DNA of 63,270 bases, the filler included, from Collodictyon triciliatum (taxonomy: Eukaryota): NCBI GenBank assembly GCA_043381765.1. It is 21 parts of 21 records of this genome, joined end to end, with 100 filler letters (N's around TTAATTAATTAA, not from the genome) between each part and the next. Parts side by side here need not be neighbours in the genome. Positions count along the whole stretch, not along the records: positions 18,150 to 21,075 come from JBHJMP010008068.1; 20 more parts are not named here. The stretch is one strand, 5' to 3'. The translations under genes and the position numbers were made by a program. Below, piece after piece: positions 2,928 to 48,477 of the stretch. The notes under the pieces were generated by a model, which saw only the letters and a program-made list of their open reading frames with translations, ran no database searches and was not told where the DNA came from. Position 1 is the first letter of the stretch. Each line of letters begins with the position of its first letter.

Positions 2928-3027
2928 NNNNNNNNNNNNNNNNNNNNNNNNNNNNNNNNNNNNNNNNNNNNTTAATTAATTAANNNNNNNNNNNNNNNNN
3001 NNNNNNNNNNNNNNNNNNNNNNNNNNN
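2928..3027. other. Artificial contig spacer (44 N + TTAATTAATTAA + 44 N); first of 20 such spacers, recurring about every 3.02 kb
   Basis: The same palindromic 12-mer (stop codons in all six frames) flanked by N runs occurs at 2972, 5998, 9023 ... 60306. Contig lengths decline slowly from about 2927 to about 2909 nt. Confidence 0.98.
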
Positions 3028-4235: not shown

Positions 4236-6364
4236 TTCCTTGTTGGGAATAAGAGCATAGTAGAAATCTTATAGTTACCACGTTTTCTTTAGTGGGGTGA
4301 TTGTTTGCACATTTTCTTTTGTGGCATGATTGTTTTTAATTATTTATCATTGTCTTATATATTTTCAGGCCACTTTCAAATTCCCATTTCATCTGATGCG
4401 ATTTGAAAATCAAGTTCCGTCGAAATGATGGGCATTAGATTCACAACCCAACTGCATGGGAGACTTGCAAGAACGACACCAGCAGGAGACAAGAAATTAT
4501 TAAAAATTCAAACTTTATACTCACACCCAGCTTTTCCTGTTATTTTATTTAGGAACATGTTAACTCTGTTACATGACAATGTTAATCGAAATGATGTTTT
4601 GAGAAATCTTTATTTTTTTTCAGGATTGAACCTTGTTTTTAGTTGCAATAGATATGGGCGCAATTCGTGTGAGACATTATTTTATTTTATTTTATTAAAT
4701 TATATTTGACAACTTGGCTCATGACCAAAGTGATATAATTAATGGTCTCATTATGCTACATATTTTTATGCGAAATCTTAATTATCCTTCGCATCTTGCA
4801 CAAATACAAATTGAGAATATGAATGTAATACGATATAGAAAAAAACGGAGAGTCTTATCAAACCATATTTTAAGTAGAGAGAAAATATTTGTGTTCCTTA
4901 TGTAATGCTGGATTCCAAAGTATCTCAAAATGAAATTCTCTCATATTGCATTGATGAGTTCCTGAACTAAGGTGTTCCGCCAAAAAAATCAGTAAATTTA
5001 ACATACGAAAATTCAATGTACTTTTTTAAAATAAACATTCGTCCAGTGGTTCGCTCGGTACATTAGGTTTCATAGATGAAAGGTTCAGGTTTGTCAATTC
5101 TCGCCAAACTTTCATCCTACGAAATGCTTTCTTTTCATAAAATTGATTTGCCAATTGAACATAGAATTCGTTAGCGCGAGGTGCTTGCTTTGTTATTGCC
5201 TCAGCAATGCAGATTCTGTTTATAGCAAAAGCATAGCATATGTACTATTTTTGCTTTATATGAAACCAATCATTCAATTTAATCACAAATCTACCACATC
5301 GAACTGATTAACTCTAAGCGTAATGAAACTTGAAATTTTTTTGTCAACCAAATTCTTGATGCAGCTTAGAAAAAAATGCTTAATGATACTATTGAATTCA
5401 CATTAAAAATCTGAAGTATTGTCATGTGTGTCCCTGTCGAATTAAGCGCGAAAGTTCGAATAGAAACCCGAATCCAGGCATAGTCTGTACTTCATGTAGA
5501 CCTAATGTCTTGTACTAACTAAGTGAAATGCAAAAATATGAATTCATAATTTCGCCTTTCTGCTTTAAATAGCCACGCACTCACGTCATAATCGCCATCT
5601 ATTTGCTCTTTATCTCATATTCGATCTGATGAATACATTCATGTATCCAAAATCCCTCTAAAACTGCGGTTCTCAATCGATTCATATATATCAAGTCTTT
5701 TACACCTTTAAAATAAGATTATTTTCGAAGAAAAAACCCTGCCAGTAGGTTGGAAAATATTACAGAATAAACAAAATCTTTGTGTTGGCTACATCTGCCT
5801 ATGCATTTAATGAGAAGGTCTTGCATCTTTCCTCGATGCCTTGCTGATAAAAATAGGCGCGGTGGACGAGATACACAAATCTCATAGATACCAACGGTGG
5901 TCGACTACATATCAGCCATATTAATGGCGGCGGGTGCAATTGGAGAGGTATGGNNNNNNNNNNNNNNNNNNNNNNNNNNNNNNNNNNNNNNNNNNNNTTA
6001 ATTAATTAANNNNNNNNNNNNNNNNNNNNNNNNNNNNNNNNNNNNNNNNNNNNCCTTTCTTCCCCTTTCTTCCCCTTTCTTCCCCTTTCTTCCCCTTTCT
6101 TCCCCTTTCTTCTATTTTTCATTCCTGTTTCTTTCAACATTTTTCCGTTTATTTTCCTCTTGTTTTCGATTGTTTTCCTTTATTTCTCTTCATATTTTTT
6201 CCCCTCTTTTCTTCCCTTTCGTTTCTCTTCTCTCCTTCCCTGGCTTAGATACCAATATGGCGTCGAGTTGAAGGGTTCAGTTGTCGCGCTGGTCTGACTC
6301 GATGGTAGTACCATTTCGGTCTTCATTTCTTTTCACTCCTCTTTCTACACAATCATATCCTCAG

Positions 6365-17824: not shown

Positions 17825-17961
17825 TACTTTGCTCAATCATGAAATAAATTGGGAGGGAAAAAACATATAAAATATTGTTGCATCCAACATCGAGAATGCA
17901 TATTTATTAATTTGTTTTGTTTGTTTGTTTTTTTTGTTTTTTTTGTTTGTTTTTTTTGTTT

Positions 17962-18049
<88 letters not shown>

Positions 18050-18192
18050 NNNNNNNNNNNNNNNNNNNNNNNNNNNNNNNNNNNNNNNNNNNNTTAATTA
18101 ATTAANNNNNNNNNNNNNNNNNNNNNNNNNNNNNNNNNNNNNNNNNNNNGTATGGCCAACACTATTTTTTTTTCCAAACAAAAACTCGGTAG

Positions 18193-20847
18193 GTTGAAGA
18201 CATCCCAGTATGGATAACTCGGCTTGTCAAGCTCATGGACTTACAAATCGAGCACGGAGGCGCCATCAGCGTAAAGCGGTCACCACGAGGAATCACAGCT
18301 CTTCCATGCTGGACAAACCAGAATAAGCTTGATGGGATGACTTTGTCTGTCTCAGAGTCACTCAAAGGACTGGTGTACTCAATCATTCAATCCAACCGCA
18401 ACGCCACCACTATAACTCCGTTGTCAATTGACTACTACAAGCAATATGAGAGTGTTGATATATCCAGTAACAAGGTGAACGGTTGAACTTTTTAAATCAA
18501 TGGTGTAATTGTTACCTATTTAATTGTAATGTATTTATGAGGTTAGGTTTATTTAATCCTTTTCTCAAAAAAAGCTGTCTTCAATCCCTGAAGGCTTCAA
18601 AGACTTAACGATATTGAATGCGCTTAGTATATCACAAAACCTTGTAATTTTAAAAACCTGGAACTTTTTATTTATTCATGTATAATTAGTCCTCTTATTT
18701 ACACAAGTAGACGCATCAGAGGTAATATATTAACTTACACCTTATCAGCTCTCTGAACTCCCTTCGGGAATATCTCTGCTGACAAACCTGTTACATATCA
18801 AGCTTGATGGCAACAAGGTAATCATAACAAGCGGTAGATTCATTCAACTAAGTAATAAATCTTTATATGCAAATACATAAAAGGAATAAATCATAATTCA
18901 TAAAGATCTCCTTTCAAATTAGTTTACATCTGTTCCAATGTGCCTGGGGACACTAACGAATCTTCACAAGCTTTCACTTCATAATAACATGGTACTACCT
19001 GATTTAAGTCATATGCTGCGTGTATAAATATAATTGCTTGTGTGGTTGGGAATCGAAGTGTCCTCATATTCCTCCTGACCTTTTAGATTGAAGACATCCC
19101 AGTATGGATAACTCGCCTTGTCAAGCTCATGGACTTACAAATCGAGCACGGAGGCGCCATCAGCGTAAAGCGGTCTCCTCGAGGAATCACAGCTCTTCCA
19201 TGCTGGACAAACCAGAATAAGCTTGATGGGATGACTTTGTCTGTCTCAGAGTCACTCAAAGGACTGGTATACTCAATCATTCACTCCAACCGCAACATCA
19301 CAACACTCGACTTATCCATGATTGAGGACTACAAGCAATATGAGAGCATCGATATATCCAGCAACAAGGTAGTTACTGATTTGCATGGCTATTATAACGC
19401 TTCACAATAAACTACATAAGTTGATACAAATAATTTTTTTTAAAAGATTGTATGTATCTTACATTTAAGGACATGCATATATATGTATATATATATATAT
19501 TCACAACGGTCTACATATGCAGATATCTATGCTGCCAGAGGATTTCAAAGAGCTCACGGTTCTCAAGCACCTTAACCTCTCACACAATCAGGTAAGCATA
19601 CCCACAGGCACTCCAATGCAAATATTGAGAGTCTAAAATCAGTGCAATGACTCAACCTCTTCATAATACTAGCTCTCCGGGCTACCCACAAGCGTATCGC
19701 TACTGACTGGACTATCCTTCGCTGGACTCGGGAATAACAAGGTATCCATACATATAGTACATCGCAAACATTGTAATATTCTTAAAACAAACAAACAAAA
19801 TAAAAGAAAACAAAAGAAAACAAAAGAAAAGCGATATGTGTCATATTCAAAGTCTCGATGACAATCATAAACCCACCATTGTAGCTTACATCTTTACCAA
19901 CATGCATGAGCACACTGACGAATCTTCATGGGCTTTTGATCCACAACAACCCGGTATCGCACCAATACGTTCCATCAAATAAACACTTTCGAAAGACGGG
20001 AGATGAAATGGATGGTATGGCCAACACTATTTTTTCCAAAAAAAAACTCGGTAGGTTGAAGACATCCCAGTATGGATAACTCGGCTTGTCAAGCTCATGG
20101 ACTTACAAATCGAGCATGGAGGCGCCATCAGCGTAAAGCGGTCACCGCGAGGAATCACAGCTCTTCCATGCTGGACAAACCAGAATAAGCTTGATGGGAT
20201 GACTTTGTCTGTCTCAGAGTCACTCAAAGTACTGGTGTACTCAATCATTCACTCCAACCGCAACATCACAACAGTGGACTTATCCATGATTGAGGACTAC
20301 AAGCAATATGAGAACATCGATATATCCAACAACAAGGTTTCAATCAGTTGCTTAATTTGATGCAATCTCAATTCAGATTCTCGCAAATACGGTTGGACTA
20401 ATGAGTTTTTTCTCTTGTCCTTTAGAAAATTAAATACAATTTGTATCTAAGTTATAAATTTCACTGCAACAGATTTTCGAAATCCCGGAATCTTTCGGTG
20501 CTATGCTGTATTTGCATTCGTTAAATCTCCGAGGAAATCATGTTTGTTCAATACTGTTTGATCTATCATTTACATTTATATAAGATTGTTTTGTTGTAAA
20601 ACTTTATCGATAAATGCTAGGTATCTGCTCTACCCAAAAGCTTCTCCCTGTTAACAGGACTCACATTGCTATTATTAGGAAACAATAAAGTATTTACTAA
20701 TGATTATATCTGTTATAATTTTCATTTTTATTTTATCTAATTCTATAATCCATGGTTTTTCACTTTACGAAATCTCAGTTCATTACGTTCCCTATGGAAA
20801 TTTCCATGCTCACAAATATTGCGTCTCTTCAATTTGATACTAACCCG
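18193..20847 (+). CDS. LRR protein built from three cassettes, each one 282-nt exon plus three 69-nt LRR exons (internal fragment, 12 exons)
   Basis: Large exons at 18193-18474, 19087-19368 and 20055-20336. 23-aa LRR exons at 18575-18643, 18749-18817, 18923-18991, 19523-19591, 19673-19741, 19885-19953, 20473-20541, 20621-20689 and 20779-20847. All are AG/GT-bounded, phase 0 and stop-free, with consensus LxxLPxxhxxLTxLxxLxLxxNx. Confidence 0.93.
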
Positions 20848-20939
20848 GTACAGTTCGCAATTTGGCAGTTGTAGTTTTTTTTTAATATATAAAGGCATTA
20901 AATTAGAATGACAGCCTTCTCTCTCTCCTTCTCTCTCTT

Positions 20940-20971
<32 letters not shown>

Positions 20972-21184
20972 TTTCTCTCTCTTTCTCTCTCTTTCTCTCT
21001 CTTTCTCTCTCTTTCTCTCTCTTTCTCTCTCTTTCTCTCTCTTTCTCTCTCTTTCTCTCTCTTTCTCTCTCTCTTNNNNNNNNNNNNNNNNNNNNNNNNN
21101 NNNNNNNNNNNNNNNNNNNTTAATTAATTAANNNNNNNNNNNNNNNNNNNNNNNNNNNNNNNNNNNNNNNNNNNNTATTATTAG

Positions 21185-23230
21185 ATTACAGATGTTCCTC
21201 ATAGTATATCCAGGTTAACAAAATTGACAGATTTAATCGTCTCCAGCAATCAGGTTCGGTATCCATTGAATAAAATTGTGATTTAAACCCGATTTTTTTG
21301 GTTCTTGTTCTCGTAGTAAGGTTGATGTTCTTGTATTTTTCAACATTCAATTATATGACTTTGAATCGAAAAAAAGGAAAAACTTTCAATTATATGAAAA
21401 TTTTAAAGCTACATATCAAACTCATACTGACATGTTTTCTCTTCAACAGCTTACAGAACTACCCGAATGTGTGGTTTTGCTGACAACTTTAAGGCGCCTA
21501 AACATATCGCTAAACAAAGTAATATTGATGATTTCTTCTGATGCTCCTCGCTAAAAGAATATTTTTCTTAAAGTAATTTCCGATTCGTTTTCAGCATATG
21601 ATAATTATTTTTTACAAACAAACAAAAACAAAAAACAAAAAACAAAAAAAAAAACAGATACAAAGACTTCCCTCTCATTTAAGTGTCTTGAAGAATTTAA
21701 GGGAACTCTATTTCTCTGACAACCAGGTGGGGTTTTGAACAATTACCCTTAACAGTTTAAATAATTTTCTCTCAAATCTTCTAACGACGACGTGATTTTT
21801 TCAAAACAGATATCATGGCTTCCTCCGTCATTTCGTCTACTCACGAATTTAATCGAGATATCAATGGAACACAATCCCTTACCAAAAAGTGTTTTAGTCA
21901 TCTGGAAGTCATATATATTAAATAAAAGTTGTGTCAATCTAAGAGGAAAGAAGTTGACTTCTTTATCTCCTTTGCTCCAAGATTTGATTCCATTTAAAAC
22001 ACTTAATCTATCAAATAATCACGTATGTAAATACTCTTGGAATTTAGCAAAGAAAAATATGTAAACATGATATAATTCTTATAATTCATAATAATTCAGA
22101 TAAAAGTTAATAGAATATTAAACTTATATATATATATTAGTTTAGAAAATTACCCTATCACGTTAATAATTTAGAATCTCTAAGAGAGCTGGTTATTCAA
22201 AACAATTCGGTATTTTTAATAACAATTGTTTGAATTTTTCTTGAAAAAATCGCCAGAAATTATGGCAAAATCTTTTCCATTTCGATAATTATGATTAACT
22301 TAGCTCTCTGACCTCCCAAAGACTCTGAGTAATCTTACAAATCTGATTAAAATTGACCTCACTTCAAACGATGTAATTGACACGACATTTGATTTGTAAT
22401 AATAAAGTGTACCCTTCTCAATTTATCTGTCAAAAAATATTATTATCTTACGCTATTCTCTTCAACGGTTATATGCTCATCAAAAGCAACCGAATGACGA
22501 AAAACACAACAAGAGAATGTTTACAAAAGAGCTAAAAAAGATTTTTTTACAGTTGACATATATACCCATGGTCGTCTATGAAATGACACAGTTACAAAAA
22601 CTGTACTTGGTTTCCAACAAAGTAAATGCTCCTGCTTCTGTTGATACATGCATTTGGTTAATGGTTCCTACCTTTAACAGCCGACCTTACATTTTGATAA
22701 TTTGCATGATTTCAATACCAAAGGTTCAAGAGATACCACAACAAATTTCCTGTTTAGTGAGACTGAGAAAATTCCTGGTGTCGTTGAATAAGGCAATTAA
22801 AAATGAATAGGCTGATAATCATGTCTTATTCATGATTATAATGCGTGCATGCGTATATTTTCGTTCAGCCTGTCCCAATTTTATAAGCTCATCAGAAGGA
22901 ATTTTGATGCAGGTAAAGTACATCTCCCCTGATATAGCAATTCTGCGCAGCTTAGAACTCTTAAATCTATACGGAAATCAGGTTCCATACTCTACAAAAC
23001 TGAACGATATAACATTAGCCTATGCACAAATTCATCCTTATCATTCGATTTGATAAAGTAGCTGATAGTCCTCTCTTTTGTATATTAATAAAAGATGGCC
23101 TTCGAATGACAATATTTCCCTTTTGTGATAGCTCGAGAAGACACCGCTTCACATATTCAAAATAACAAACTTGGCGAGTATTCGTTTACCAAGAAACTGT
23201 ATCCAATTCCTTCCGGATTCATATCTATGA
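21185..23230 (+). CDS. LRR protein, 3' part; one 23-aa LRR per 69-nt phase-0 exon
   Basis: Exons at 21185-21253, 21450-21518, 21658-21726, 21810-22022 (213 nt), 22141-22209, 22304-22372, 22553-22621, 22724-22792 (GC donor), 22913-22981 and 23132-23230 (TGA). Example: LTELPECVVLLTTLRRLNISLNK. Confidence 0.9.
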
Positions 23231-23974
23231 ACATAATAACTTAAGTGCAAGTAATCTTCCAATGTGTTGGTTAAATGACGTAAATCGTTGGTATCTGATA
23301 ATAAGAACCTGCCTACCGAAATAAATACTATCCCAGTAACTTAATCTTTGTTCGTTTTGTATTCATCAAAAAAATATGATGTATATCATTTGTGGTTATG
23401 ATTAAGAAACTTGACATAAACATAACCAACGCTAGACGAGATTTATACTTAACTTTGTTTTAATTTTTGAAAAATTATTATAAAGAGCACCGTTTTTCAT
23501 TCAAAATATCGTAATCATACATGAACTTCCGGTGATTTGGTTGGGAATTGTTTGACTCATTTCATACGCCCCTAAAACCCATCAGCCTTCCGCCCTCTTC
23601 GTTTTTTTTTTTTTTGCTCGTAATGGCGCAGATATGTCACTCAGCATAATTTCCAGAAATTATTTCCATAGTAGGTATGAAAAAGCGTATATCATTCCGA
23701 GTTCTTCCATTGGTGGAAATTTTTTTGGATCTGTCCATTCTGCAGCCCAATTCGTCGATTTTCGATCTGATCTTGATTACCCTTCCTGTTCTCCGTGGCT
23801 TTTCTTCTATTCTTTTCGCCCTTTCGCCGCTCCTCTCTTCCTCCCCGTTTGGCCACGGACACTAACTAGCCGCACAACTTTACTCCCTCTCGTGCTACTT
23901 TTTTTTCTTTTCATCAATCATTATGCCCTTTATTACAAAACAAATGTTGGCTTAGTTTATTAGTTAATGGCAGA

Positions 23975-24071
23975 ATGCTCGAGAAGCGTGCGGCACTGCT
24001 CCTGGACTACTTCGTCGGAGGTTACTTTCGGAACATCAACCGGGAGAATCTAAGCGCTTCTGTTTTGAAAG
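23975..24071 (+). CDS. First coding exon of a Chorein-N (VPS13-family) protein; absent from the ORF track
   Basis: MLEKRAALLLDYFVGGYFRNINRENLSASVLKG|gt matches the Chorein-N start (MLEslva.lLn.ylG.Yv.nld..qL.i.iw.G). Confidence 0.7.
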
Positions 24072-24195
24072 GTTGTCTTTTTCCTTTTATTCCATNNNNN
24101 NNNNNNNNNNNNNNNNNNNNNNNNNNNNNNNNNNNNNNNTTAATTAATTAANNNNNNNNNNNNNNNNNNNNNNNNNNNNNNNNNNNNNNNNNNNN

Positions 24196-25555
24196 AGAAT
24201 CCCGCAGGGCAGTCGAAGCAACTTGATCTACCGTCCACACTGTTGTATGTACCAGGACTGCATTCAAGACAAGACGAAATACCTGCACCTTTTGAAAGTG
24301 GGTTATATAAACCTGCAGGGCAAGCAGTGCAAAAGATTTGGCCATAGTCGCTGTAGAATCCTGGAGAACACTCGAGGCAAGTAGATTGACCAGTTATGTA
24401 ATTGTAAGTGCCTTGTTCACAATCCCTACACGAAGATTGTCCAGGTATCGGGTTATATGTGCCATTGGCGCAGGGGAGACAATCATTTAATGAAGTTGAA
24501 CCACTTAACTTATTAAATGTTCCAGGTGGACAGACCGCACAATAGTTGGAATTGTGTCCGTAGTTGTATGTTCCTGGCGGACAAGAATTGCAGCTCTTGG
24601 AGATAGCATCGTAATACAAGCCAGGAGAGCATATATCATATAGGTTCCACACCTTAATAGACCTATCGTAACTTCCTGTGATTATTTTTGTACCATCTAT
24701 AGTCACAGCCACGCCAGTGACGCTACTACTGTGACCATCAAGGGAACGAATAAGACCATAATCTGGATAACGCCATAACTTTGCGGTATTGTCGTCACTT
24801 CCAGAGATAATCTTGGTGCCATTTTGGGCCATAACTATTGATTTTATTTGATTTCTGTGACTAGATAGAGAGGTTAAAAAGGCTCCGGTAGAAAAACTCC
24901 ATACTTTTATGGAGCAATCACCCCCTCCTCCAGAGATAATTTTTGACCCATCTGGTGCAATCGCAAGACTAAGTACACGAGAGCCATGACCAGTAACTGT
25001 TCGAATCAAAGAACCATTAGAAATCAACCATATTCGTATCGTTTGGTCATCACTACCTGATATTGTGTACAAACCATCAGGAGTGATTGAAACCGCATTA
25101 ACTTGTCCACTATGTCCGGACAGTGTGCGAACTAAGCTTCCATCAGATAAATTCCAAATTTTTACAGTTTGGTCTCGACCGCCGGATATAATAGTTGCTC
25201 CATCGGGGCTGACTGCCACACCCAGAATATAATTTGAGTGACCAACAAGAGACCTCATTAGAGTTCCAAGAGAAAGGTTCCAAATATCAACAGAATTTGA
25301 AAATCCACCGGAAACTATATGCAATCCATTTGAAGACACTGTTACTGTAAGTATACCGTTTGAGTGATAAATTGTTCGGATCAAAGAGCCATCTGATATT
25401 GCCCAAATCCTTATTGTATTATCCATACTTCCAGACACAATTTTGGAACCGTCTGGCGTGACAGCAACAGTCTCGACGGTGCGTGTGTGCCCAGTTAATG
25501 TTCGAATTAAATTTTGGCACAGCACCGGCGACAAGGCACTGATAAGGAGAAGCAT
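24196..25555 (-). CDS. Intronless signal-peptide protein: seven WD40 repeats followed by Cys-rich GCC2/GCC3 (ephrin-receptor-like) repeats; 3'-truncated
   Basis: MLLLISALSPVLC leader; repeats GH..V..V..xPDG..I.SGS.D.T...W; then CxPGxY..C..C..GTY repeats to the contig edge. Many NxS/T sequons (NLS, NGS, NGT). Confidence 0.88.
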
Positions 25556-27217
25556 GACTGGTATTTTTTTTATTTTATTTTTTTTGTGGAGATGGATTTT
25601 ACTATAACTATCAGCAAAATATGGCATTATATACATATCCTTGCATTGGTTTGGAGAAAATAATCACAGGGTTTTATTTGAAAGAATTCTCACCAGGAAA
25701 GACATATCTTCCTTTTGTCTGCGGCCTTATGTCCATTTTATCTAAAACAATATGAAATTCATTTTCTATTTCACCATAATATCAAAGAATAATTTATGAC
25801 AATAGGGGTACGATCGAGAAGACACAAAAGATCGAAGCAAAAACAAAAAAAAAAAAAGAAATATCCCATTTGCGATGGCAACTTTCTTTGTGCCAGGCGA
25901 GTCTTATCCACCCAATAGAAAACCCACGTATTTGAGTGCGCCTTTGTCACTCTGGAGAACTTGCCCACAAAGACGAGGGTGATTGCGTGAGGTTTGCTGG
26001 GCAGCGGCGCTGTGGATATTTGTTATTCGATTTGATCAGCACACAGCTCTTGCTAAGCCAGGCCGATCCCCTTTTGTCCTATTCCTACAAATGTGGAATT
26101 TATGCACTCTTGCAGTTTTTTATTTGCTTATGGCCAATGCTTCTGCAATTCACTAGATTATGTCAGCTGTTGCTATAATTATAATAAAGGGTAAAAAGAT
26201 TTTGTGAAATATGTGCGTATCCAACATTTTCTAATAATGGGTCGAGATATATGGTAGGGATGCATGTCTCCTCTGCTATAATCGACTGGGTGAGTTGTTC
26301 GGGACGCTCTGGATAGACTGGCACATGAGCAGATGAGGACCAGTCGAGCAATTAATATCATCTGCATAGCTATTCAAATCAATCAGATTTCTTGCAATTA
26401 TCTTGAATTATTATATTTTTTTTTTTGTAACTTGAAAGTCATTGGGCATCCCATGGAATTATAGTTATGAAACAGAGGAACCAAGGCTACATGATGTCGT
26501 TGGTCGTATTTTATCAAGAAAACGACGCTTTCAATAGTTTTTAGTTCGCGCAAGCAATCACACAAAGATATTGCCAGAGCCCGTAAGAGCCAAGCGCCCT
26601 TGAAAAAAAAAAAAAAGGTATTTGCACCGAATTTGGTGGGCGGGATTCGTCTGGTAACGCATTTTTAAAATGCATCCCTCTAATTAAACGCGTCGCCAGC
26701 CTTGAACCTCTTATTACTAGCGGGTTGTGTGAAAACGCAAAGCACCATCCAAGGCAGCCACCCTCGTTCTCGTCGTTGCTTCGCTGTGATCTGGCTCGAG
26801 CCTTTTCTTCTTTTCCCACTTTTCTTTCCTTTCCTTTCCTTTCCTTTCTTTCCTTTTCTTTCCTTTTCTTTCCTTTTCTTTCCTTTTCTTTCCTTTTTCT
26901 TTTCTTTTCTTTTCTCTTCTTTTCTCTTCTTTTCTCTTCTTTTCTCTTCTTTTTCTTTTCTTTTCTTTTTCTTTTCTTTTTCTTTTCTTTTTCTTTTTCT
27001 TTTCTTTTTCTTTTCTTTTCTCTTCTTTTTCTTTTCTTTTTCTTTTCTTTTTCTTTTCTTTTCTTTTCTTTTCTTTTCTTTTTCTTTTCTTTTTCTTTTC
27101 TTTTTCTTTTCTTTTNNNNNNNNNNNNNNNNNNNNNNNNNNNNNNNNNNNNNNNNNNNNTTAATTAATTAANNNNNNNNNNNNNNNNNNNNNNNNNNNNN
27201 NNNNNNNNNNNNNNNGG

Positions 27218-30100
27218 GCTGAGATGAGAGACAAATTTGCTGATAAACTCGGATGTATTCACACCAGAACATTGAATTCATGCGAATACTTGTCCGTCCA
27301 TTCAAAGGAAATTGGAATCAAGAAAGAGCCCGTCGAGTTTACAAGAGTCAAGGAATTTATCTGTGAAACTCTTGATGATGCAAAACTAGATGAGGAATGG
27401 AATCGTGAGCAAATCATTGCATCGTTATTCAGAATTGTCTACATGTCAAAGACTGATGAGAGCAAATCAAAGGCTGCATCTGATGCAATCACAGTTTTGA
27501 ATTTCATGAATATTTCGTTCGGTGGAATGGATTTATCAAACATCAAAATTCCGCATGCGAATCTCAGTAATTCAATCCTTGATGGTGCAAACCTCACTGG
27601 TGCCAACTTGGATGGTGTCGATTTCACGAATTCGATGCTTGGTGATAGTGTTTTTGATAATGCAAATATGAGTAATGTGAAATTCGGAATTCTGAATGAT
27701 AAATTGGAAGGTCATACATATGCTGTCACTAGTGTTTGCAGTATTCAAGGACCGAATGGTGAAAATTGGCTGGCTTCTGGCAGTAATGATGCAACAATAC
27801 GCATTTGGGATGTAGCCACGGGAAACCAAATCAAAACATTGGAAGGTCACATAGATGAGGTCATGAGTGTTTGCAGCATTCAAGGACCGAATGGTGAAAA
27901 TTGGCTGGCCTCTGGAAGTAATGATAGAACAATACGTATATGGGATGTAACCACAGGAAACCAAATCAAAACATTAAAAGGTCATGATTACAGTGTCAAC
28001 AGTGTTTGCAGTATTCAAGGACCGAATGGTGAAAATTGGTTGGCTTCTGGAAGTTTTGATACAACAATACGCATTTGGGATGTGGCCACAGGAAACCAAA
28101 TCAAAATACTAGAGGGTCATACATGGTCTGTCAATAGCGTTTGCAGTATTGAAAGACCGAATGGCGAAAATTGGTTAGCTTCTGGAAGTAGGGATAGAAC
28201 AATATGCATTTGGGATGTAGCCACAGGACACCAAATCAAAATATTGGAAGGTCATACAAGTGCTGTCAATAGTGTTTGCAGCATTCAAGGACCGAATGGT
28301 GAAAATTGGCTGGCTTCTATTGGAAGTCAAGATAACACAATACGTATTTGGGATGTAGCCACAGGAAATCAAATCAAAACATTAGAAGGTCACACAAATT
28401 GGGTCAATAGTGTTTGCAGTATTCAAGGACTGAATGGCGAAATATGGTTGGCTTCTGGAAGTAATGATGGAACAATTCGTATTTGGGATGTAACCACAGG
28501 AAACCAAATCAGAACATTAGAAGGTCATACAAATGATGTCAATAGTGTTTGCAGTATCCAAGGACCGAATGGTGAAAACTGGTTGGCTTCTGGAAGTCGT
28601 GATGATACAATACGTATTTGGGATGCAGCCACAGGAAACCAAATCAAAACATCAAAAGGTCATACAAGGGAAGTCTACAGTGTTTGCAGTATTCAAGGAC
28701 CGAATGGTGAAAATTGGCTGGCTTCTGGAAGTGTTGATAAGACAATACATATTTGGGATGTAGCCACAGGAAACCAAATCAAAACATTAGAAGGGCATAC
28801 AGAACGTGTCAAATGTGTTTGCAGTATTCAAGGACCGAATCGTGAAAATTGGTTGGCTTCTGGAAGTTTTGATAAAACAATACGTATCTGGAATATAGCC
28901 ACAGGAAATCAAATCAAAATATTAGAAGGTCATACAGATTGGGTCTTTAGTGTTTGCACTATTCAAGGACCTAATGGTGAAAATTGGTTGGCTTCTGGAA
29001 GTCAAGATAACACAATACGTATTTGGGATGTAGCCACAGGACACCAAATCAAAATACTAGAAGGTCATACATATGGTGTCAACAGTGTTTGTAGTATCCA
29101 AGGACCGAATGGCGAAAACTGGCTGGCTTCTGGAAGTGGTGATTGGACAATATGTATTTGGGATATAGTGACAGGAAACCAAATCAAAACATTGGAAGGT
29201 CATACAGATGGTGTCATGAGTGTTTGCAGCATTCAAGGGCCGAATGGCGAAAGTTGGCTGGCTTCTAGAAGTTATGATAAAACAATACGCATTTGGGATG
29301 TAGCCACAGGAAACCAAATCAAAATATTAGAAGGTCATACAGAATGGGTCACTAGTGTTTGCAATGTCCAAGGACCGAATGGTGAAAACTGGTTGGCTTC
29401 TGGAAGTGAAGATAATACAATACGCATCTGGGATGTAGCCACAGGAAACCAAACACACAGTCTGCAAAAGTCAGAAGTGACCTACACCCAAGGAAAATAC
29501 CTTGTCAAGAAAGAAAAGCCAGACGAAGTCATCGCAGTATTCAACAGTACAAGTGATGCGATGAACATGATTGACACCAACAGAATCCAAGATGCAAAGA
29601 CAATCCAGATTATCGGCCCAAGAAAGCTGCAAGGTGGAAACATCCAAATCAGAAATGTCGCAGGATTGAGTCAATACAACAAATCCCTCCTACTTTCTAT
29701 CGGTGCTGCTTCCTTTGATGCGGACTTTGCTGCCTATTGTGAGCAGGGTAAGTTTACAAAGTTCCAGGCTCAAATGATGGCTGAGTGCTATGAGAATGGA
29801 TGGGGTGTTGAGAAGGACACCGAGAAAGCAGTTGAGTGGAATCTATTGGCTCTAAAAGCATATAAAAACTTTGATAAACTGAAGGAACTGGCTCAAAAAG
29901 GCTCAAATAATGCATTCAGTGTTTTGAAAGAAATGGCTGACATCAAGGAAGATATCAAAAACGATTGGGGATATAAAACCGGTGAAAAACACAAATATCC
30001 ACAGGCTGTTTCTATTGTTGCTGAATGCTATGAAAATGGATGGGGTGTTGATAAAGACCCTGGAAAAGGAGTAGAGTGGAGACAGAAAGCCACAGATTAA
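27218..30100 (+). CDS. Intronless protein: pentapeptide repeats, 13 near-identical 47-aa WD40 repeats, SEL1-like tail (probable C-terminal part of a NACHT-WD40 NLR-like protein); 5'-truncated
   Basis: The frame is open from the contig edge. AASDAITVL..ISFGGMDLSNIKIPHANLS..ANLTGANL..NVKFG; repeats GHxxxVxSVCSIQGPNGENWLASGSxDxTIRIWDVATGNQIKTLE; IQIRNVAGLSQYNKSLLLSIGA; two AECYENGWGVxKDxxKxVEW SEL1-like motifs. Confidence 0.92.
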   Translation, partial: AEMRDKFADKLGCIHTRTLNSCEYLSVHSKEIGIKKEPVEFTRVKEFICETLDDAKLDEEWNREQIIASLFRIVYMSKTDESKSKAASDAITVLNFMNISFGGMDLSNIKIPHANLSNSILDGANLTGANLDGVDFTNSMLGDSVFDNANMSNVKFGILNDKLEGHTYAVTSVCSIQGPNGENWLASGSNDATIRIWDVATGNQIKTLEGHIDEVMSVCSIQGPNGENWLASGSNDRTIRIWDVTTGNQIKTLKGHDYSVNSVCSIQGPNGENWLASGSFDTTIRIWDVATGNQIKILEGHTWSVNSVCSIERPNGENWLASGSRDRTICIWDVATGHQIKILEGHTSAVNSVCSIQGPNGENWLASIGSQDNTIRIWDVATGNQIKTLEGHTNWVNSVCSIQGLNGEIWLASGSNDGTIRIWDVTTGNQIRTLEGHTNDVNSVCSIQGPNGENWLASGSRDDTIRIWDAATGNQIKTSKGHTREVYSVCSIQGPNGENWLASGSVDKTIHIWDVATGNQIKTLEGHTERVKCVCSIQGPNRENWLASGSFDKTIRIWNIATGNQIKILEGHTDWVFSVCTIQGPNGENWLASGSQDNTIRIWDVATGHQIKILEGHTYGVNSVCSIQGPNGENWLASGSGDWTICIWDIVTGNQIKTLEGHTDGVMSVCSIQGPNGESWLASRSYDKTIRIWDVATGNQIKILEGHTEWVTSVCNVQGPNGENWLASGSEDNTIRIWDVATGNQTHSLQKSEVTYTQGKYLVKKEKPDEVIAVFNSTSDAMNMIDTNRIQDAKTIQIIGPRKLQGGNIQIRNVAGLSQYNKSLLLSIGAASFDADFAAYCEQGKFTKFQAQMMAECYENGWGVEKDTEKAVEWNLLALKAYKNFDKLKELAQKGSNNAFSVLKEMADIKEDIKNDWGYKTGEKHKYPQAVSIVAECYENGWGVDKDPGKGVEWRQKATD

Positions 30101-30390
30101 CAAGGTAAGTAGTGTTATACATTCATATTAATANNNNNNNNNNNNNNNNNNNNNNNNNNNNNNNNNNNNNNNNNNNNTTAATTAATTAANNNNNNNNNNN
30201 NNNNNNNNNNNNNNNNNNNNNNNNNNNNNNNNNCTGTTTTCATGGAGCGTCCTTGTGGGAAAAAAGCGGAGGTCTGCTTGAAAAAAACCCAGAGAATCTC
30301 TCCATCTAAAATGATTATAATTAACGAATATACATTAATTTGCATTTACTATACTACTTACCTTGTTAAGCTGCGGCTTTTCCGAACCAG

Positions 30391-33150
30391 TCAACTGCTT
30401 TCTTCATCATCTCCCCATTCTTCTCCCCATTCTTCTCCTTCTTCATCCTGTCCTTCTTCATCCTGTCCTTCTTCATCCTGTCCTTCTTCATCATCTCCCC
30501 ATTCTTCTCCCCATTCTTCTCCTTCTTCATCCTGTCCTTCTTCATCCTGTCCTTCTTCATCCTGTCCTTCTTCATCTTCTCCTTCTTCATCATTTCCTAT
30601 CACAAAGTTTTTAGCTTTCTGTCTCCATTCAGCTGCTTTCACGGTGTCCCTCTCAACACCCCATCCATTGTCATAGCACTCAGCCATCACTTGAGCCTGG
30701 AACTTGGTGAACTTACCCTGCTCACAATAGGCAGCAAAGTCCGCATCAAAGGAAGCAGCACCGATAGAAAGTAGGAGGGATTTGTTGAATTGACTCAATC
30801 CTGTAACATTTCTGATTTGGATGCTTCCACTTTGCAGCTTTCTTGGGCCGATAATCTGGACTGTCTTTACATCTTGGATTCTGTTGGTGTCAATCATGTC
30901 CATCGCATCACTTGTACTATTGAATACTGCGATGACTTCGTCTGGTTTATCTTTCATGACCAATTGGCTCTTTAAATTGTAAGTCACTTCTGCTTTTTGC
31001 AGACTGTGTATTTGGCTTCCTGTGGCTATATCCCAAATATGTATTGTTTTATCATCACTTCCAGAAGCCAGCCACTTTTCGCCATTCGGTCCTTGAATGC
31101 TGCAAACACTCATGACAGATTCTCTATGACCTTCTAATGTATTGATTTGGTTTCCTGTCACTATATCCCAAATAATTATTGTTTTATCACCACTTCCAGA
31201 AGCCAGCCAATTTTCACCATTCGGTCCTTGAATACTGCAAACACTTCTGACCCAATCTGTATGCCCTTCTAATGTTTTAATTTGATTTCCTGTGGCTACA
31301 TCCCAAATACGTATTGTGCTATCATAACTTCCGGAAGCCAGCCAATTTTCACCATTCGGTCCTTGAATACTACAAAGACTGTTGACATAACCTCTATGAC
31401 CTTCTAATGTATTGATTTGGTTTCCCGTGGCTACATCCCAAATACGTATTGTTCCATCATGACTTCCAGAAGCCAACCACTTTTCACCATTTGGTCCTTG
31501 AATATGGATACTGTTGGTGTCAATCATGTTCATCGCGTCACTTGTTCTGTTGAATACTGCGATGACTTCGTCTGGCTTTTCTTTCTTGACAAGGTATTTT
31601 CCTTGGGTGTAGGTCACTTCTAATTTTTCCACACTGTGTGTTTCGTTTCCTGTGGCTACATCCCAAATACGAATTGTTTTATCAACACTTCCAGAAGCCA
31701 GCCAGTTTTCACCATTCGGTCCTTCAATACTGCAAACACTATATACAATACTTGTATGTCCTTCTAATGTTTTGATTTGGTTTCCTGTTGCTATATCCCA
31801 AATACGTAATATATTATCATAACCTCCAGAAGCCAACCATATTTCACCATTCGGTCCTTGAATAGTGCAAACACTCATGACAAAACCTATATGTCCTTCT
31901 AATGTTTTGATATGGTTTCCTGTGGCTACATCCCAAACACGTATTGTCCTATCATCACTCCCAGAAGCCAGCCAGTTTTCACCATTCGGTCCTTGAATAC
32001 TGCAAACACAATAGACCCAGCTTGTATGACCTTCCAATGTTTTGATTTGGTTTCCTGTGGCTACATCCCAAATACGTATTGTGTTATCTTCACTTCCAGA
32101 AACCAACCAAGTTTCACCATCCGGTCCTTGAATACTGCAAACACTAGTGACTTCGCTTGTATGACCTTCTAATGTTTTGAATTGGTTTCCTGTGGCTACA
32201 TCCCAAACACCTGTTGTTCTATCGTCACCACTACCCATCCAATCTTCACAAATCTGCATTCTAATACTGCAAATACTCCAGACAATATGTGTATGTCCTT
32301 CTAATTTTTTGATTTTGTTTCCTGTGGTTATATCCCAAATACGCATTGTTCCATCCCAACTTCCAGAAGCCAGCCAGTGTTCACCATTCGGCCCTTGAAT
32401 ACTGCAAACACTATATACAGAATCTACATGACCTTCTAATGTTTTGATTTGATTTCCTGTGGTTACATCCCAAATACGTATTGTATTATCACCACTATCA
32501 TTAGGATTACCACCTCCAGAAGCCAACCAGTTTTCACCATTCGGTCCTTGAATACTGCAAACACTTTCGACACAACTTGCATGTCCTAGTATTTTGATTT
32601 GGTTTCCTGTGGCTACATCCCAAACACGTATTGTGTTATCGTCACTTCCAGAAGCCAGCCACTTTTCACCATTCGGTCCTTGAATGCTGCAAACACTCAT
32701 GACAAAACCTGTATGTCCTTCTAATGTTTTGATATGGTTTCCTGTGGCTACATCCCAAATACGTATTGTATTATCACGACTTCCAGAAGCCAACCAATTT
32801 TCACCATTCGGTCCTTGAATACTACAAACACTATTGACTTCCCATGTATGACCTTCCAATGTTTTGATATGGTTTCCTGTGGTTACATCCCAAATAAGTA
32901 TTGTATTATCCCAAATTCCCGAAGCCAGCCACTTTTCACCATTCGGTCCTTGAATGCTGCAAACACTCATGACAAAACCTGTATGTCCTTCTAATGTTTT
33001 GATATGGTTTCCTGTGCCTACATCCCAAATACGTATTGTTTTATCACCACTTCCAGAAGCCAACCAGTTTTCACCATTCGGTCCTTGAATATTGCAAACA
33101 CTATTGATAGCATCTGTATGACCTTCTAGTGTTTTAATTTGGTTTCCTGT
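30391..33150 (-). CDS. Paralogue of the 27218-30100 gene: 14 full plus one half WD40 repeat, duplicated linker, one SEL1-like repeat and an acidic tail; 5'-truncated
   Basis: Same 141-bp repeat consensus and a near-identical C-terminal block (GLSQFNKSLLLSIGAASFDADFAAYCEQGKFTKFQAQ). The frame is open to the contig edge. Confidence 0.92.
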   Translation of the reverse strand, partial: TGNQIKTLEGHTDAINSVCNIQGPNGENWLASGSGDKTIRIWDVGTGNHIKTLEGHTGFVMSVCSIQGPNGEKWLASGIWDNTILIWDVTTGNHIKTLEGHTWEVNSVCSIQGPNGENWLASGSRDNTIRIWDVATGNHIKTLEGHTGFVMSVCSIQGPNGEKWLASGSDDNTIRVWDVATGNQIKILGHASCVESVCSIQGPNGENWLASGGGNPNDSGDNTIRIWDVTTGNQIKTLEGHVDSVYSVCSIQGPNGEHWLASGSWDGTMRIWDITTGNKIKKLEGHTHIVWSICSIRMQICEDWMGSGDDRTTGVWDVATGNQFKTLEGHTSEVTSVCSIQGPDGETWLVSGSEDNTIRIWDVATGNQIKTLEGHTSWVYCVCSIQGPNGENWLASGSDDRTIRVWDVATGNHIKTLEGHIGFVMSVCTIQGPNGEIWLASGGYDNILRIWDIATGNQIKTLEGHTSIVYSVCSIEGPNGENWLASGSVDKTIRIWDVATGNETHSVEKLEVTYTQGKYLVKKEKPDEVIAVFNRTSDAMNMIDTNSIHIQGPNGEKWLASGSHDGTIRIWDVATGNQINTLEGHRGYVNSLCSIQGPNGENWLASGSYDSTIRIWDVATGNQIKTLEGHTDWVRSVCSIQGPNGENWLASGSGDKTIIIWDIVTGNQINTLEGHRESVMSVCSIQGPNGEKWLASGSDDKTIHIWDIATGSQIHSLQKAEVTYNLKSQLVMKDKPDEVIAVFNSTSDAMDMIDTNRIQDVKTVQIIGPRKLQSGSIQIRNVTGLSQFNKSLLLSIGAASFDADFAAYCEQGKFTKFQAQVMAECYDNGWGVERDTVKAAEWRQKAKNFVIGNDEEGEDEEGQDEEGQDEEGQDEEGEEWGEEWGDDEEGQDEEGQDEEGQDEEGEEWGEEWGDDEESS
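30400..30595 (-). repeat. Coding minisatellite of (DEEGQ)n and (EEWG)n units with an 84-nt higher-order duplication
   Basis: 15-bp units TTCTTCATCCTGTCC and 12-bp units TTCTTCTCCCCA occur in two repeated blocks. Confidence 0.9.
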
Positions 33151-33471
33151 GNNNNNNNNNNNNNNNNNNNNNNNNNNNNNNNNNNNNNNNNNNNNTTAAT
33201 TAATTAANNNNNNNNNNNNNNNNNNNNNNNNNNNNNNNNNNNNNNNNNNNNTGTGTCTGTGTCTGTGTCTGTGTCTGTGTCTGTGTCTGTGTCTGTGTCT
33301 GTGTCTGTGTCTGTGTCTGTGTCTGTGTCTGTGTCTGTGTCTGTGTCTGTGTCTGTGTCTGTGTCTGTGTCTGTGTCTGTGTCTGTGTCTGTGTCTGTGT
33401 CTTGATGTGAATGCTCCTATTAATAATAAAAATAATAAAAGTTCATATCTTGTACCTTTACTATTTTAATA

Positions 33472-35691: not shown

Positions 35692-36334
35692 GGAGCAAAC
35701 CGCCGCGTCTTTTGCACGCTAATAAATGCGCAATCATGCCTATTATGGGGGATATCGAGGCGAGTCGGCTCCACGTCATCATTTATCTGTCGCCGTGACC
35801 AAGAACGAAGAACTGGACTCGCACTCCTTTTTTTTGCTTTTTCTCTTGTTTTCTCGTTTTCATTTTTCTCAACTTTCCTCTCTTTACTTTCGTTCTCCTT
35901 TTTCTTATGTTTTTCTTCTTTTTTCTTCTCTTTTCTTTTTTTCTCTTTTCTATTATTTTCCTTTTTCTTTTTCTTTCTTTTTCTTTTTCTTTCTTTTTCT
36001 TTTTCTTTCTTTTTCTTTTTCTTTCTTTTTCTTTTTCTTTCTTTTTCTTTTTCTTTCTTTTTCTTTCTTTTTCTTTCTTTTTCTTTTTCTTTCTTTTACT
36101 TCCATTCCTTTTTTTCTCTTTTTTTTCTCTTTTTTTTCTCTTTTTTTTTTCTTTTTTTTCTTTTTTTTNNNNNNNNNNNNNNNNNNNNNNNNNNNNNNNN
36201 NNNNNNNNNNNNTTAATTAATTAANNNNNNNNNNNNNNNNNNNNNNNNNNNNNNNNNNNNNNNNNNNNGGAAAAAAAAAGGGGTGTGGGGGTTTGGGTGT
36301 GGGTTTTTTTTTTTTTTTTTTTTTCTCTTTAAAT

Positions 36335-44831: not shown

Positions 44832-44916
44832 CTACAAGCAGATATCAAGAAAACAAATGACGAAATATGAGCTGAAATGCAAAATAATACATAAGTAACG
44901 AGTCTTGGTCTATGGA

Positions 44917-44988
<72 letters not shown>

Positions 44989-45162
44989 AAAGAAAGAAAA
45001 GAAAGAAAGAAAAGAAAGAAAGAAAAGAAAGAAAGAAAGAAAAGAAAGAAAAGAAAGAAAGAAAGAAAAGAAAGAAAAGAAAAGAAAAGAAAGAAAAGAA
45101 AGAAAGAAAGAAAAGAAAAGAAAAGAAAAGAAAAGAAAAGAAAAGAAAAGAAAAGAAAAGAA

Positions 45163-45206
<44 letters not shown>

Positions 45207-48445: not shown

Positions 48446-48477
48446 ATTATGGCCAAGAAAATTATATATTCTAAAGT

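What the first reader, a model, noticed from the sequence alone, without database searches (positions are those of the whole stretch)
18150..20847. LRR gene built from a higher-order cassette: a homogenised 282-nt anchor exon alternating with triplets of divergent 69-nt LRR exons
Seen: the unit (one 94-aa exon plus three 23-aa LRR exons) repeats three times, all in phase 0. The anchor exons are almost identical, including silent sites; copies 1 and 2 differ at 6 positions in the first ~210 nt. The LRR exons keep only positional similarity (slot 2: LSELPSGISLLTNL / LSGLPTSVSLLTGL / VSALPKSFSLLTGL), and their introns are not alignable by eye. One recent tandem duplication would leave introns and LRR exons equally similar. 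Inference: the anchor exon is a homology platform for gene conversion or unequal crossover that swaps old, diverged LRR triplets, giving a combinatorial receptor-diversification system. Known analogues are one-repeat-per-exon shuffling in Ectocarpus ROCO LRRs and ciliate LRR genes. I do not recall an anchor-plus-triplet design.
Basis: partly seen in the sequence, partly recalled or inferred. Interest (0 to 1): 0.8.

Follow-up and report, generated by a model that had tools for sequence, protein, structure and literature searches.

The report
Repeat-built LRR gene fragment, anchors homogenised
This is an expressed piece of a protist leucine-rich-repeat gene made of three copies of a seven-repeat unit, in which one long connector exon has been kept almost identical by selection and gene conversion while the short repeat exons drifted apart; it is an interesting but largely ordinary case of repeat evolution, not a shown diversity-generating system.

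Summary
Window 18150-21075 is a single 2.9-kb unplaced contig, flanked by artificial N/TTAATTAATTAA linkers. It holds 12 phase-0 exons with AG/GT borders: three times (one 282-nt "anchor" plus three 69-nt LRR exons). Anchors differ at 4-7 of their first 210 nt (pS 0.04-0.10). LRR exons keep only slot-wise similarity (43-71% nt, pS 0.46-0.87), and introns align no better than shuffles. Spliced RNA contigs from public runs support 8 of 11 introns.

The anchor is not a free-standing novelty. It is a conserved ~94-aa LRR-connector module (motif R-x-P-x-G-I-T-x-L-P-C-W). It recurs every 139-177 aa between neighbouring copies in Diphylleia rotans proteins that carry Roc-COR, kinase, RING-NHL or NYN effectors.

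Informative sites switch from A1=A3 to A2=A3 near anchor position 184-197 (p<1/2000). This indicates intragenic gene conversion confined to the only stretch that is still homologous.

Against a dedicated shuffling system: slot order is fixed, and no relic exons lie in introns or on the other strand. The next (fourth) anchor, seen in RNA, is diverged at silent sites. D. rotans anchors are only 26-52% alike.

Verdict: new variant of a known kind; interest about 0.3.

The parts
18050..18149 (.). Artificial linker (N44 + TTAATTAATTAA + N44) that separates unplaced contigs
   Evidence: 20 identical linkers in the window
18150..18192 (+). 3' end of the intron upstream of anchor 1. It is the contig's first bases and is nearly identical to 20012-20054, upstream of anchor 3.
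18193..18474 (+). Anchor exon A1 (94 aa, phase 0). LRR-connector module with the motif RSPRGITALPCW. Positions 211-246 are diverged from A2/A3.
18575..18643 (+). LRR exon 1.1 (23 aa)
   Evidence: the joint 18643>18749 is seen in RNA contig X2
18749..18817 (+). LRR exon 1.2 (23 aa)
18923..18991 (+). LRR exon 1.3 (23 aa)
19087..19368 (+). Anchor exon A2 (94 aa)
19523..19591 (+). LRR exon 2.1
19673..19741 (+). LRR exon 2.2
19885..19953 (+). LRR exon 2.3
   Evidence: X3 record 13 joins 2.1-2.2-2.3-A3 with 0 mismatches
20055..20336 (+). Anchor exon A3 (94 aa). A mosaic: the upstream intron and 5' part resemble A1, and the 3' part resembles A2.
20473..20541 (+). LRR exon 3.1 (its splice joints were not seen in RNA contigs)
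20621..20689 (+). LRR exon 3.2
20779..20847 (+). LRR exon 3.3. In RNA contig X2 it is followed by a fourth, silent-site-diverged anchor that lies beyond the contig.
20848..21075 (+). Start of the next intron, running into a CT-rich microsatellite (20917-21075) at which the contig ends

Best explanation
The contig is a fragment of an expressed, intron-rich gene of a freshwater eukaryote. The organism is probably a protist, but it was not identified. The gene encodes a large cytosolic-type (SHOC2/ROCO-class) LRR protein.

**Build of the protein.** It consists of tandem ~163-aa super-repeats. Each has one 94-aa connector exon plus three single-LRR exons. In the fold predicted for a homologue, the connector is an LRR strand, a beta-hairpin, and helical, irregular turns that restart the next LRR block.

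**Age of the super-repeat.** It is old. Introns and LRR exons are saturated, and only slot-specific residues remain alike.

**What keeps the connector alike (inferred).**
1. Strong purifying selection on a structural module, which is shared with Diphylleia rotans proteins.
2. Among these three copies only, recent intragenic gene conversion or unequal recombination.

The connector is the only stretch that still has enough nucleotide identity to pair. Exchange is therefore confined to it and keeps renewing that identity, making it a 'homology island'.

**LRR exons.** They evolve independently, fastest at the concave-face x positions of LxxLxLxxN.

**Function (inferred from relatives).** A ligand- or protein-binding arm of a sensor or signalling protein. 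Its effector domain lies outside the contig.
For: - **Exon structure and numbers:**
- **Splicing:** spliced RNA contigs support 8 of 11 introns. One contig joins 2.1-2.2-2.3-A3 with 0 mismatches.
- **Anchor divergence:** anchor positions 1-210 have pS 0.04-0.10 and pN 0.013. 6 of 8 variable sites in positions 1-210 are third codon positions.
- **LRR exons and introns:** LRR exon pS is 0.46-0.87. Introns score z<=2.0 against shuffles in 10 of 10 pairs.
- **Mosaic:** breakpoint between positions 183 and 198, permutation p<1/2000. The upstream intron is shared by A1 and A3 only.
- **Fourth anchor:** in RNA it matches 10 of 11 residues but has about 6 silent differences in 33 nt.
- **Rarity of the module:** only 33 of 1.84 billion representative proteins match the anchor at E<=1e-3, at 32-51% identity.
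- **Source of the relatives:** of the 20 hits looked up, 15 are D. rotans transcripts, 4 are unnamed short contigs, and 1 is a bacterial MAG protein judged spurious.
- **Architecture of relatives:** the module aligns end to end. It recurs every 139-177 aa between neighbouring copies. It sits in proteins with Roc-COR, kinase, RING+NHL or NYN domains.
- **Predicted fold:** AF2 model of homologue P0010 has pLDDT 88.4. It shows an LRR strand, a hairpin and three helices, after which LRRs resume. Foldseek finds SHOC2, Leptospira LRR and Roco LRR chains, with TM only about 0.46.
- **Residue classes in LRR exons:** same-slot identity is 64% at framework positions, 44% at other positions and 16% at concave x positions.
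Against: - No genome is held, so the number and arrangement of anchors elsewhere is unknown.
- The contig is short and unplaced, and begins inside a repeated stretch. Some mis-joining at anchors cannot be excluded. Three introns (A1>1.1, A3>3.1, 3.1>3.2) have no RNA support.
- Some RNA contigs join a 2.3-like exon to anchors that map better to A1 or A2 than to A3, and one joins anchor to anchor. This could reflect paralogues, strain variants, de Bruijn chimeras or real rearrangement.
- The effector domain and the function are inferred from proteins only 32-51% identical over the anchor.
- Purifying selection cannot be separated from positive selection in the LRR exons, because pS is saturated.
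Confidence: 0.65

Rival explanations
1. The anchors serve as homology platforms for unequal crossover or conversion that swaps whole LRR triplets between units, loci or cells. This would give combinatorial diversity in a receptor family.
For: - A recombination breakpoint lies inside the anchor.
- A metagenome DNA contig has an A3-type anchor end joined to the A2 downstream intron.
- RNA contigs have a 2.3-like exon joined to non-A3 anchors, and one has an anchor-anchor joint.
- All exons are phase 0, so any unit can be removed or added in frame.
- Relatives carry immune-like effectors: Roc-COR, RING-NHL and NYN.
- Concave-face residues are only 16% conserved.
Against: - Slot order is identical in 3 of 3 units.
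- There are no relic or inverted LRR exons.
- The exchanged tracts seen do not carry flanking triplets or introns with them.
- The fourth anchor is diverged at silent sites.
- Anchors within D. rotans proteins are only 26-52% identical.
- The odd RNA joints come from short de Bruijn contigs of mixed samples and map ambiguously among near-identical anchors.
Confidence: 0.12
2. Assembly artefact. Near-identical anchors from several units or paralogues were collapsed or used as bridges. The order of triplets, and part of the anchors' identity, would then be products of the assembler.
For: - The contig is a 2.9-kb unplaced piece that starts inside a repeated stretch and ends in a microsatellite.
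- No independent contig spans a whole anchor with both flanks.
- Further anchor variants at 85-97% identity exist in RNA runs.
Against: - The three anchors differ from one another at 11-29 sites in a structured, mostly third-position pattern.
- Independent RNA contigs support 1.1-1.2-1.3, 1.3>anchor, anchor>2.1, 2.1-2.2-2.3-A3 and 3.2-3.3>anchor.
- Metagenome DNA contigs match unit-2 introns with 0-3 mismatches per ~130-145 nt.
Confidence: 0.12
3. The silent-site identity of the anchors reflects selection on the nucleotide sequence itself (splicing enhancers, an RNA structure, or the antisense ORFs of 65-74 aa), not conversion.
For: - Open antisense frames of 74, 65 and 73 aa cover all three anchors.
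- Identity stops exactly at the exon borders for A2 against A3.
Against: - The fourth anchor keeps the peptide but changes about 6 silent sites in 33 nt.
- Rfam finds nothing in the window.
- The mosaic switch of site patterns, and the shared upstream intron of A1/A3, are signs of exchange rather than of constraint.
- The antisense frames are alike only because the DNA is alike.
Confidence: 0.05

Closest known systems
Diphylleia rotans LRR proteins with the R-A-P-x-G-I-T-x-L-P-C-W connector module (EukProt transcripts, e.g. the 2181-aa LRR-Roc-COR protein P0001)
   Same: - The 94-aa anchor aligns end to end at 32-51% identity.
- The module recurs every 139-177 aa between neighbouring copies, with 2-3 ordinary 23-aa LRRs in between. 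The window's period is 163 aa.
- The LRRs are of SHOC2/ROCO type.

   Different: - Anchors within one D. rotans protein are only 26-52% identical, against 86-95% here.
- Only transcripts are known, so their exon structure could not be compared.
- The effector domains are known there but unknown here.
- No paper on these proteins was found: 0 papers hold 'Diphylleia rotans' together with 'leucine-rich repeat'.
Brown-algal (Ectocarpus, Saccharina) ROCO genes with shuffled one-LRR exons (PMC3341825: abstract and sections 12 and 15 read; PMC11378527: passages read)
   Same: - One LRR per symmetric exon.
- Relatives of the window's module include LRR-Roc-COR proteins.
- Recombination within the LRR region.
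- Variable residues on the binding face.
   Different: - The algal exons are 72 nt and phase 2 (24-aa type I). Here they are 69 nt and phase 0, with borders offset.
- There is no long anchor exon in the algae.
- Algal loci carry intact or dead LRR exons in introns and on the non-coding strand, and a rearranged order between paralogues. None is seen here.
Tetrahymena LRR genes with arrays of exactly 90-bp exons (PMC6564038, passages read)
   Same: The exon equals the repeat unit. [quoted passage not shown]
   Different: The exons are 90 bp with phase-2 introns, in tens of thousands of copies. There is no higher-order anchor-plus-triplet unit. The window's long ORFs are open under the standard code.
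LRR super-motifs (STT) of small leucine-rich proteoglycans and TLR7/8/9 (PMC1899181, passages read), and plant LRR proteins with non-LRR island regions (PMC4030839, search listing only)
   Same: A higher-order repeat made of unlike LRR types, and a non-LRR island that interrupts the solenoid.
   Different: Those are extracellular animal or plant proteins with super-motifs of about 80 residues. There is no report in the passages read of one member of the super-motif being homogenised at the DNA level.
Lamprey variable lymphocyte receptor assembly from LRR cassettes
   Different: Nothing here shows an incomplete germline gene, flanking donor cassettes or somatic change.

Membership tests
D. rotans-type LRR-connector module proteins | Full-length match to the ~94-aa module, including the R-x-P-x-G-I-T-x-L-P-C-W motif | tested here: met
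   phmmer E-values of 6e-28 to 1e-10 for the 10 best of 33 hits. The motif RSPRGITALPCW is present in 3 of 3 anchors. The alignments have invariant G, P, P and C.
D. rotans-type LRR-connector module proteins | The module recurs periodically, with a few ordinary LRRs between copies | tested here: met
   The period is 163 aa here. In the relatives, neighbouring copies are 139-144 aa apart in most and 162-177 aa apart in P0001.
D. rotans-type LRR-connector module proteins | C-terminal effector domain (Roc-COR, kinase, RING-NHL, NYN) | not testable with these tools
   The contig ends after exon 3.3, and no genome is held.
Brown-algal shuffled-exon ROCO genes | Each LRR on its own symmetric exon | tested here: met
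   9 of 9 short exons hold one 23-aa LRR, phase 0. The anchor, however, holds several irregular repeats.
Brown-algal shuffled-exon ROCO genes | 72-nt exons, phase 2 (type I, GxxPxxL...) | tested here: not met
   The exons are 69 nt, phase 0, and begin LxxLP. The definition comes from PMC3341825 section 15 and passages of PMC11378527.
Brown-algal shuffled-exon ROCO genes | Relic or intact LRR exons in introns and on the non-coding strand | tested here: not met
   tblastn of all 12 exon peptides against the window found no hit with E<0.1 inside contig 7 outside the 12 exons. The only hit there was a 13-aa minus-strand match at E 0.77. Introns are 79-154 nt.
Brown-algal shuffled-exon ROCO genes | Roc-COR domains downstream of the LRRs | not testable with these tools
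   The contig is a fragment. Roc and COR are present in the relatives P0001 and P0013, and Roc in P0004.
Brown-algal shuffled-exon ROCO genes | Rearranged exon order between paralogues | not testable with these tools
   No genome is held. Within the contig, slot order is the same in 3 of 3 units.
Tetrahymena 90-bp LRR exon arrays | Exons of exactly 90 bp separated by phase-2 introns | tested here: not met
   The exons are 69 and 282 nt, with phase-0 introns.
Concerted evolution by intragenic gene conversion | Discordant site patterns along the repeat (mosaic), with low silent divergence next to saturated flanks | tested here: met
   Max chi-square breakpoint between positions 183 and 198, with 0 of 2000 permutations as extreme. 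pS is 0.04-0.10 against 0.46-0.87.
Diversifying selection on LRR binding face | dN/dS above 1 at the x positions of LxxLxLxxN | tested here: inconclusive
   Concave positions are identical in 7 of 45 same-slot comparisons, against 52 of 81 at framework positions. But pS is saturated and there are only 9 exons.

The most novel reading that the evidence does not exclude
In a protist lineage that carries D. rotans-type LRR sensors, the long connector exon acts as a recombination platform. Exchange within it adds, removes or swaps whole three-LRR cassettes between units, paralogues or strains. This would be cassette-level exon shuffling of putative immune receptors. Frame-neutral skipping of cassettes in mRNA could add further variety.
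Probability: 0.12. Interest if true: 0.65.

Novelty: new variant of a known kind. Interest (0 to 1): 0.3.

Why it matters
The contig gives a clean, small example of how a repeat protein can evolve at two speeds within one gene. A structural connector is kept alike by selection and conversion, while the neighbouring ligand-facing repeats diverge to saturation.

It also brings to light a connector module that no Pfam model reached its cut-off on in the window's three anchors. In D. rotans this module links LRR blocks in proteins with immune-like effectors.

If the anchors really mediate cassette exchange, this would be a second, independent route to LRR receptor diversity in protists, beside the brown-algal ROCO genes. 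The present data do not show that.

Tried and rejected
- **Whole-genome search.** A search for further anchors was not possible: no genome is held.
- **The search for homologous proteins.** It found nothing with anchor 2 ('longer'; 'near'). It also found nothing with the 12-row module alignment ('longer': 7353 candidates, none scored). The D. rotans relatives came only from the exhaustive representative search.
- **Spurious hits among the 33.** Two hits scanned against Pfam, P0003 (Big_12/FG-GAP) and P0022 (fn3), look like chance matches of repeats. P0025, a bacterial MAG protein, and P0029, which was not examined further, match only about 30 residues of the anchor. I treated all four as spurious and left them out.
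- **Pfam on the three anchors.** Only sub-threshold hits: LRR_8 at E 0.14, and a chance Herpes_DNAp_acc hit.
- **Rfam on the whole window.** 0 matches.
- **ESM Atlas.** Only generic LRR clusters, with scores of 0.93-0.95 and 109-126 shared features.
- **Earlier findings.** Nothing by place or by sequence.
- **Sequencing runs.** No run holds more than 0.11 of the sampled words, so the source organism's own reads were not available. Parts of the contig without cover in X1-X4 (for example A3>3.1 and 3.1>3.2) say nothing either way.
- **Contig 8 as the direct continuation (21176-24095; at least 8 LRR exons on the same strand).** Rejected. The RNA contig that joins 3.2-3.3 runs on into another anchor, not into contig 8's first exon. 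Contig 8's 71-aa exon shows no BLASTP similarity to the anchor.
- **Ciliate origin.** Unlikely, since ORFs of 900-980 aa are open under the standard code.
Full report
**What the window is**

The 63,270-nt window is not one chromosome stretch. It is a chain of 21 contigs of 2909-2927 nt, roughly in order of size. They are joined by identical 100-nt linkers (N44, TTAATTAATTAA, N44). The finding lies in the seventh contig, 18150-21075. That contig begins inside an intron and ends in a CT-rich microsatellite. No whole genome is held for the window. Everything below therefore concerns a 2.9-kb gene fragment.

**The observation**

It holds. Three direct copies of 287 nt lie 894 and 968 nt apart. Their identities are 90.7%, 96.2% and 90.6%, with E-values of 1e-112 to 1e-133.

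The exons, all with AG and GT borders and lengths divisible by three, are:
- anchors 18193-18474, 19087-19368 and 20055-20336 (94 aa each);
- nine 23-aa LRR exons at 18575, 18749, 18923, 19523, 19673, 19885, 20473, 20621 and 20779.

Divergence differs sharply between the parts:
- In anchor positions 1-210 the copies differ at 6, 4 and 7 sites. pS is 0.04-0.10 and pN is 0.013.
- Same-slot LRR exons are 43-71% identical in nt, with pS 0.46-0.87.
- Other-slot pairs are 28-54% identical.
- All ten pairs of corresponding introns align no better than shuffles (z<=2.0).

- The 43 nt before anchor 1 match the end of the intron before anchor 3.
- Anchor 1 differs from the other two at 19 of 36 nt in positions 211-246.

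**Is it a real, expressed gene?**

No public run holds more than 0.11 of the contig's sampled words. Laying four runs was nevertheless informative.
- Spliced contigs from RNA-type runs support 8 of 11 introns at the predicted GT..AG sites.
- One 256-nt contig joins 2.1-2.2-2.3-A3 without a mismatch. Another joins 1.1-1.2-1.3.
- Three introns (A1>1.1, A3>3.1, 3.1>3.2) were not seen.
- Short DNA contigs of a freshwater metagenome match unit-2 exons and introns with 0-3 mismatches each.
- The contig that joins 3.2-3.3 runs on into a further exon that starts like an anchor: 10 of 11 residues are the same, with about 6 silent nucleotide differences in 33 nt. The gene therefore has at least a fourth unit beyond the contig. 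That anchor is not homogenised with the first three.
- Other RNA contigs carry anchors with 4-22 mismatches per 122-250 nt, so more units or paralogues exist.

**What the anchor is**

Pfam gives only sub-threshold LRR hits for the anchor alone. An exhaustive phmmer search of 1.84 billion representative proteins found only 33 hits at E<=1e-3, at 32-51% identity.

I looked up 20 of these 33:
- 15 are Diphylleia rotans transcripts from EukProt.
- 4 are unnamed short contigs.
- 1 is a bacterial MAG protein, which I judged spurious.

Four hits in all were treated as chance matches. Two (P0003, P0022) carry unrelated Pfam repeat families. Two (P0025, P0029) match only about 30 residues of the anchor.

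The anchor aligns end to end with a module that has this consensus: I-x-E-L-P..I-T..L..L.I-E..G...V.R-A-P.G-I-T.L-P-C-W...M-T...S-E.L..L.L...S.N.

- In D. rotans the module recurs 139-144 aa apart in most proteins, and 162-177 aa apart in the 2181-aa protein P0001. Wider gaps of 260-326 aa also occur. The period here is 163 aa.
- It sits in proteins with Roc-COR, protein kinase, RING plus NHL, or NYN ribonuclease domains.
- Several of the short environmental hits continue with V (GTx) right after the final S-x-N-K/Q/E. This suggests that the 3' exon border is shared, but that is an inference.
- An AlphaFold2 model of homologue P0010 (pLDDT 88.4) shows the module as an LRR strand, a beta-hairpin and three helices, after which regular LRRs resume.
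- Foldseek finds SHOC2, Leptospira LRR and Roco LRR chains, but with TM only about 0.46. That fits an interrupted solenoid (inference).

The 'anchor plus a few LRRs' design is therefore an old protein architecture, not a peculiarity of this locus.

**Why the three anchors are so alike**

Structural constraint explains the low pN, but not the low pS. The fourth anchor keeps the peptide yet differs at silent sites. Anchors within D. rotans proteins are only 26-52% identical, against 86-95% here.

The pattern of informative sites is mosaic:
- In positions 1-183 there are 4 sites with A1=A3, 2 with A1=A2 and none with A2=A3.
- In positions 198-282 there are 22 sites with A2=A3, 2 with A1=A2 and none with A1=A3.
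- The best breakpoint lies between positions 183 and 198, and 0 of 2000 label permutations reach its chi-square.

The upstream intron is shared by A1 and A3 only. In addition, a 151-nt metagenome DNA contig carries anchor-3 letters at the 4 listed sites that distinguish A2 from A3, then continues into the intron downstream of A2. This looks like a conversion polymorphism. However, it rests on one short contig.

I conclude that recent intragenic gene conversion, or unequal recombination with short tracts, acts on these three copies. It is confined to the one stretch that still has enough identity to pair.

**Does it shuffle triplets?**

Nothing shows that it does.
- Slot order is the same in all three units. 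Slot identity resides mainly in non-framework, non-concave residues: 44% identity for same-slot pairs against 18% for different-slot pairs.
- tblastn with all 12 exon peptides finds no relic or inverted exon in the contig. Such relics are the hallmark of brown-algal ROCO shuffling (PMC3341825, section 15).
- The exchanged tracts do not carry neighbouring introns or LRR exons with them.
- Some RNA contigs join a 2.3-like exon to anchors that map better to A1 or A2, and one joins anchor to anchor. These could be paralogues, strain variants, graph chimeras or real rearrangements. I cannot tell which.
- Concave-face residues are almost fully diverged (7 of 45 identical). But synonymous sites are saturated, so positive selection cannot be tested.

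**Comparison with what is known**

- **Brown-algal ROCO genes.** They use 72-nt, phase-2 single-LRR exons, and show relic exons and rearranged paralogues (PMC3341825, sections 12 and 15; PMC11378527, passages).
- **LRR super-motifs.** These are described in small proteoglycans and TLR7-9 (PMC1899181, passages).
- **Non-LRR islands.** These are described in plant LRR proteins (PMC4030839, search listing only).
- **D. rotans proteins.** No paper in the searched library holds 'Diphylleia rotans' together with 'leucine-rich repeat'.

The window's gene shares the one-LRR-per-symmetric-exon principle and probably the ROCO-like protein class. It differs in exon size, phase and borders, and in having a long connector exon that is locally homogenised.

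**Verdict**

This is a new variant of a known kind: concerted evolution of one member of a higher-order LRR repeat, within a little-known module family. A cassette-shuffling role remains possible at roughly one in eight. Testing it needs the full genome and long reads.

Noticed in passing
whole window; linkers at 2928-3027, 5954-6053 and so on (20 in all): The window is a pseudo-molecule of 21 unplaced contigs of 2909-2927 nt, joined by N44-TTAATTAATTAA-N44 and roughly sorted by size. Contig 7 (2926 nt) is slightly out of order. Neighbouring features in this window are therefore not neighbours in the genome.
   Followed up: yes
21176-24095 (+): The next contig holds a second LRR gene fragment. 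It has at least 8 single 23-aa LRR exons, one 71-aa exon (21810-22022) and an apparent stop near 23230. It has no anchor module (no BLASTP similarity). Its first exon resembles the first 17 residues of the anchor (53-59% identity, E 0.2-0.3). Two of 21 contigs carrying such genes hints at a large family.
   Followed up: partly
27216-30133 (+) and 30234-33151 (-): Two separate contigs carry long intronless ORFs (about 960 and 919 aa). They contain 11-13 WD40 repeats with a very regular ~42-aa unit and near-identical repeats, followed by a shared C-terminal region. This looks like another fast-evolving repeat family.
   Followed up: partly
24196-25663 (-): An ORF with WD40 repeats followed by ephrin-receptor-like cysteine-rich repeats. 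It runs off the contig end.
   Followed up: no
48475-51231 (+): A 919-aa open frame that fills almost a whole contig. It has no Pfam match at E<=1e-4 and a coiled-coil-looking C-terminal part.
   Followed up: no
contig ends, e.g. 17920-18049, 20917-21075, 26700-27115, 35800-36168, 44900-45208: Many contigs end in microsatellites or low-complexity runs (poly-T, CT-rich, GAA/CTT-rich). Simple repeats probably broke the assembly at these points.
   Followed up: no
18162-18386, 19083-19280, 20027-20248 (-): Antisense open frames of 74, 65 and 73 aa cover each anchor. They are probably just a by-product of the anchors' identity. No evidence of use was found.
   Followed up: partly
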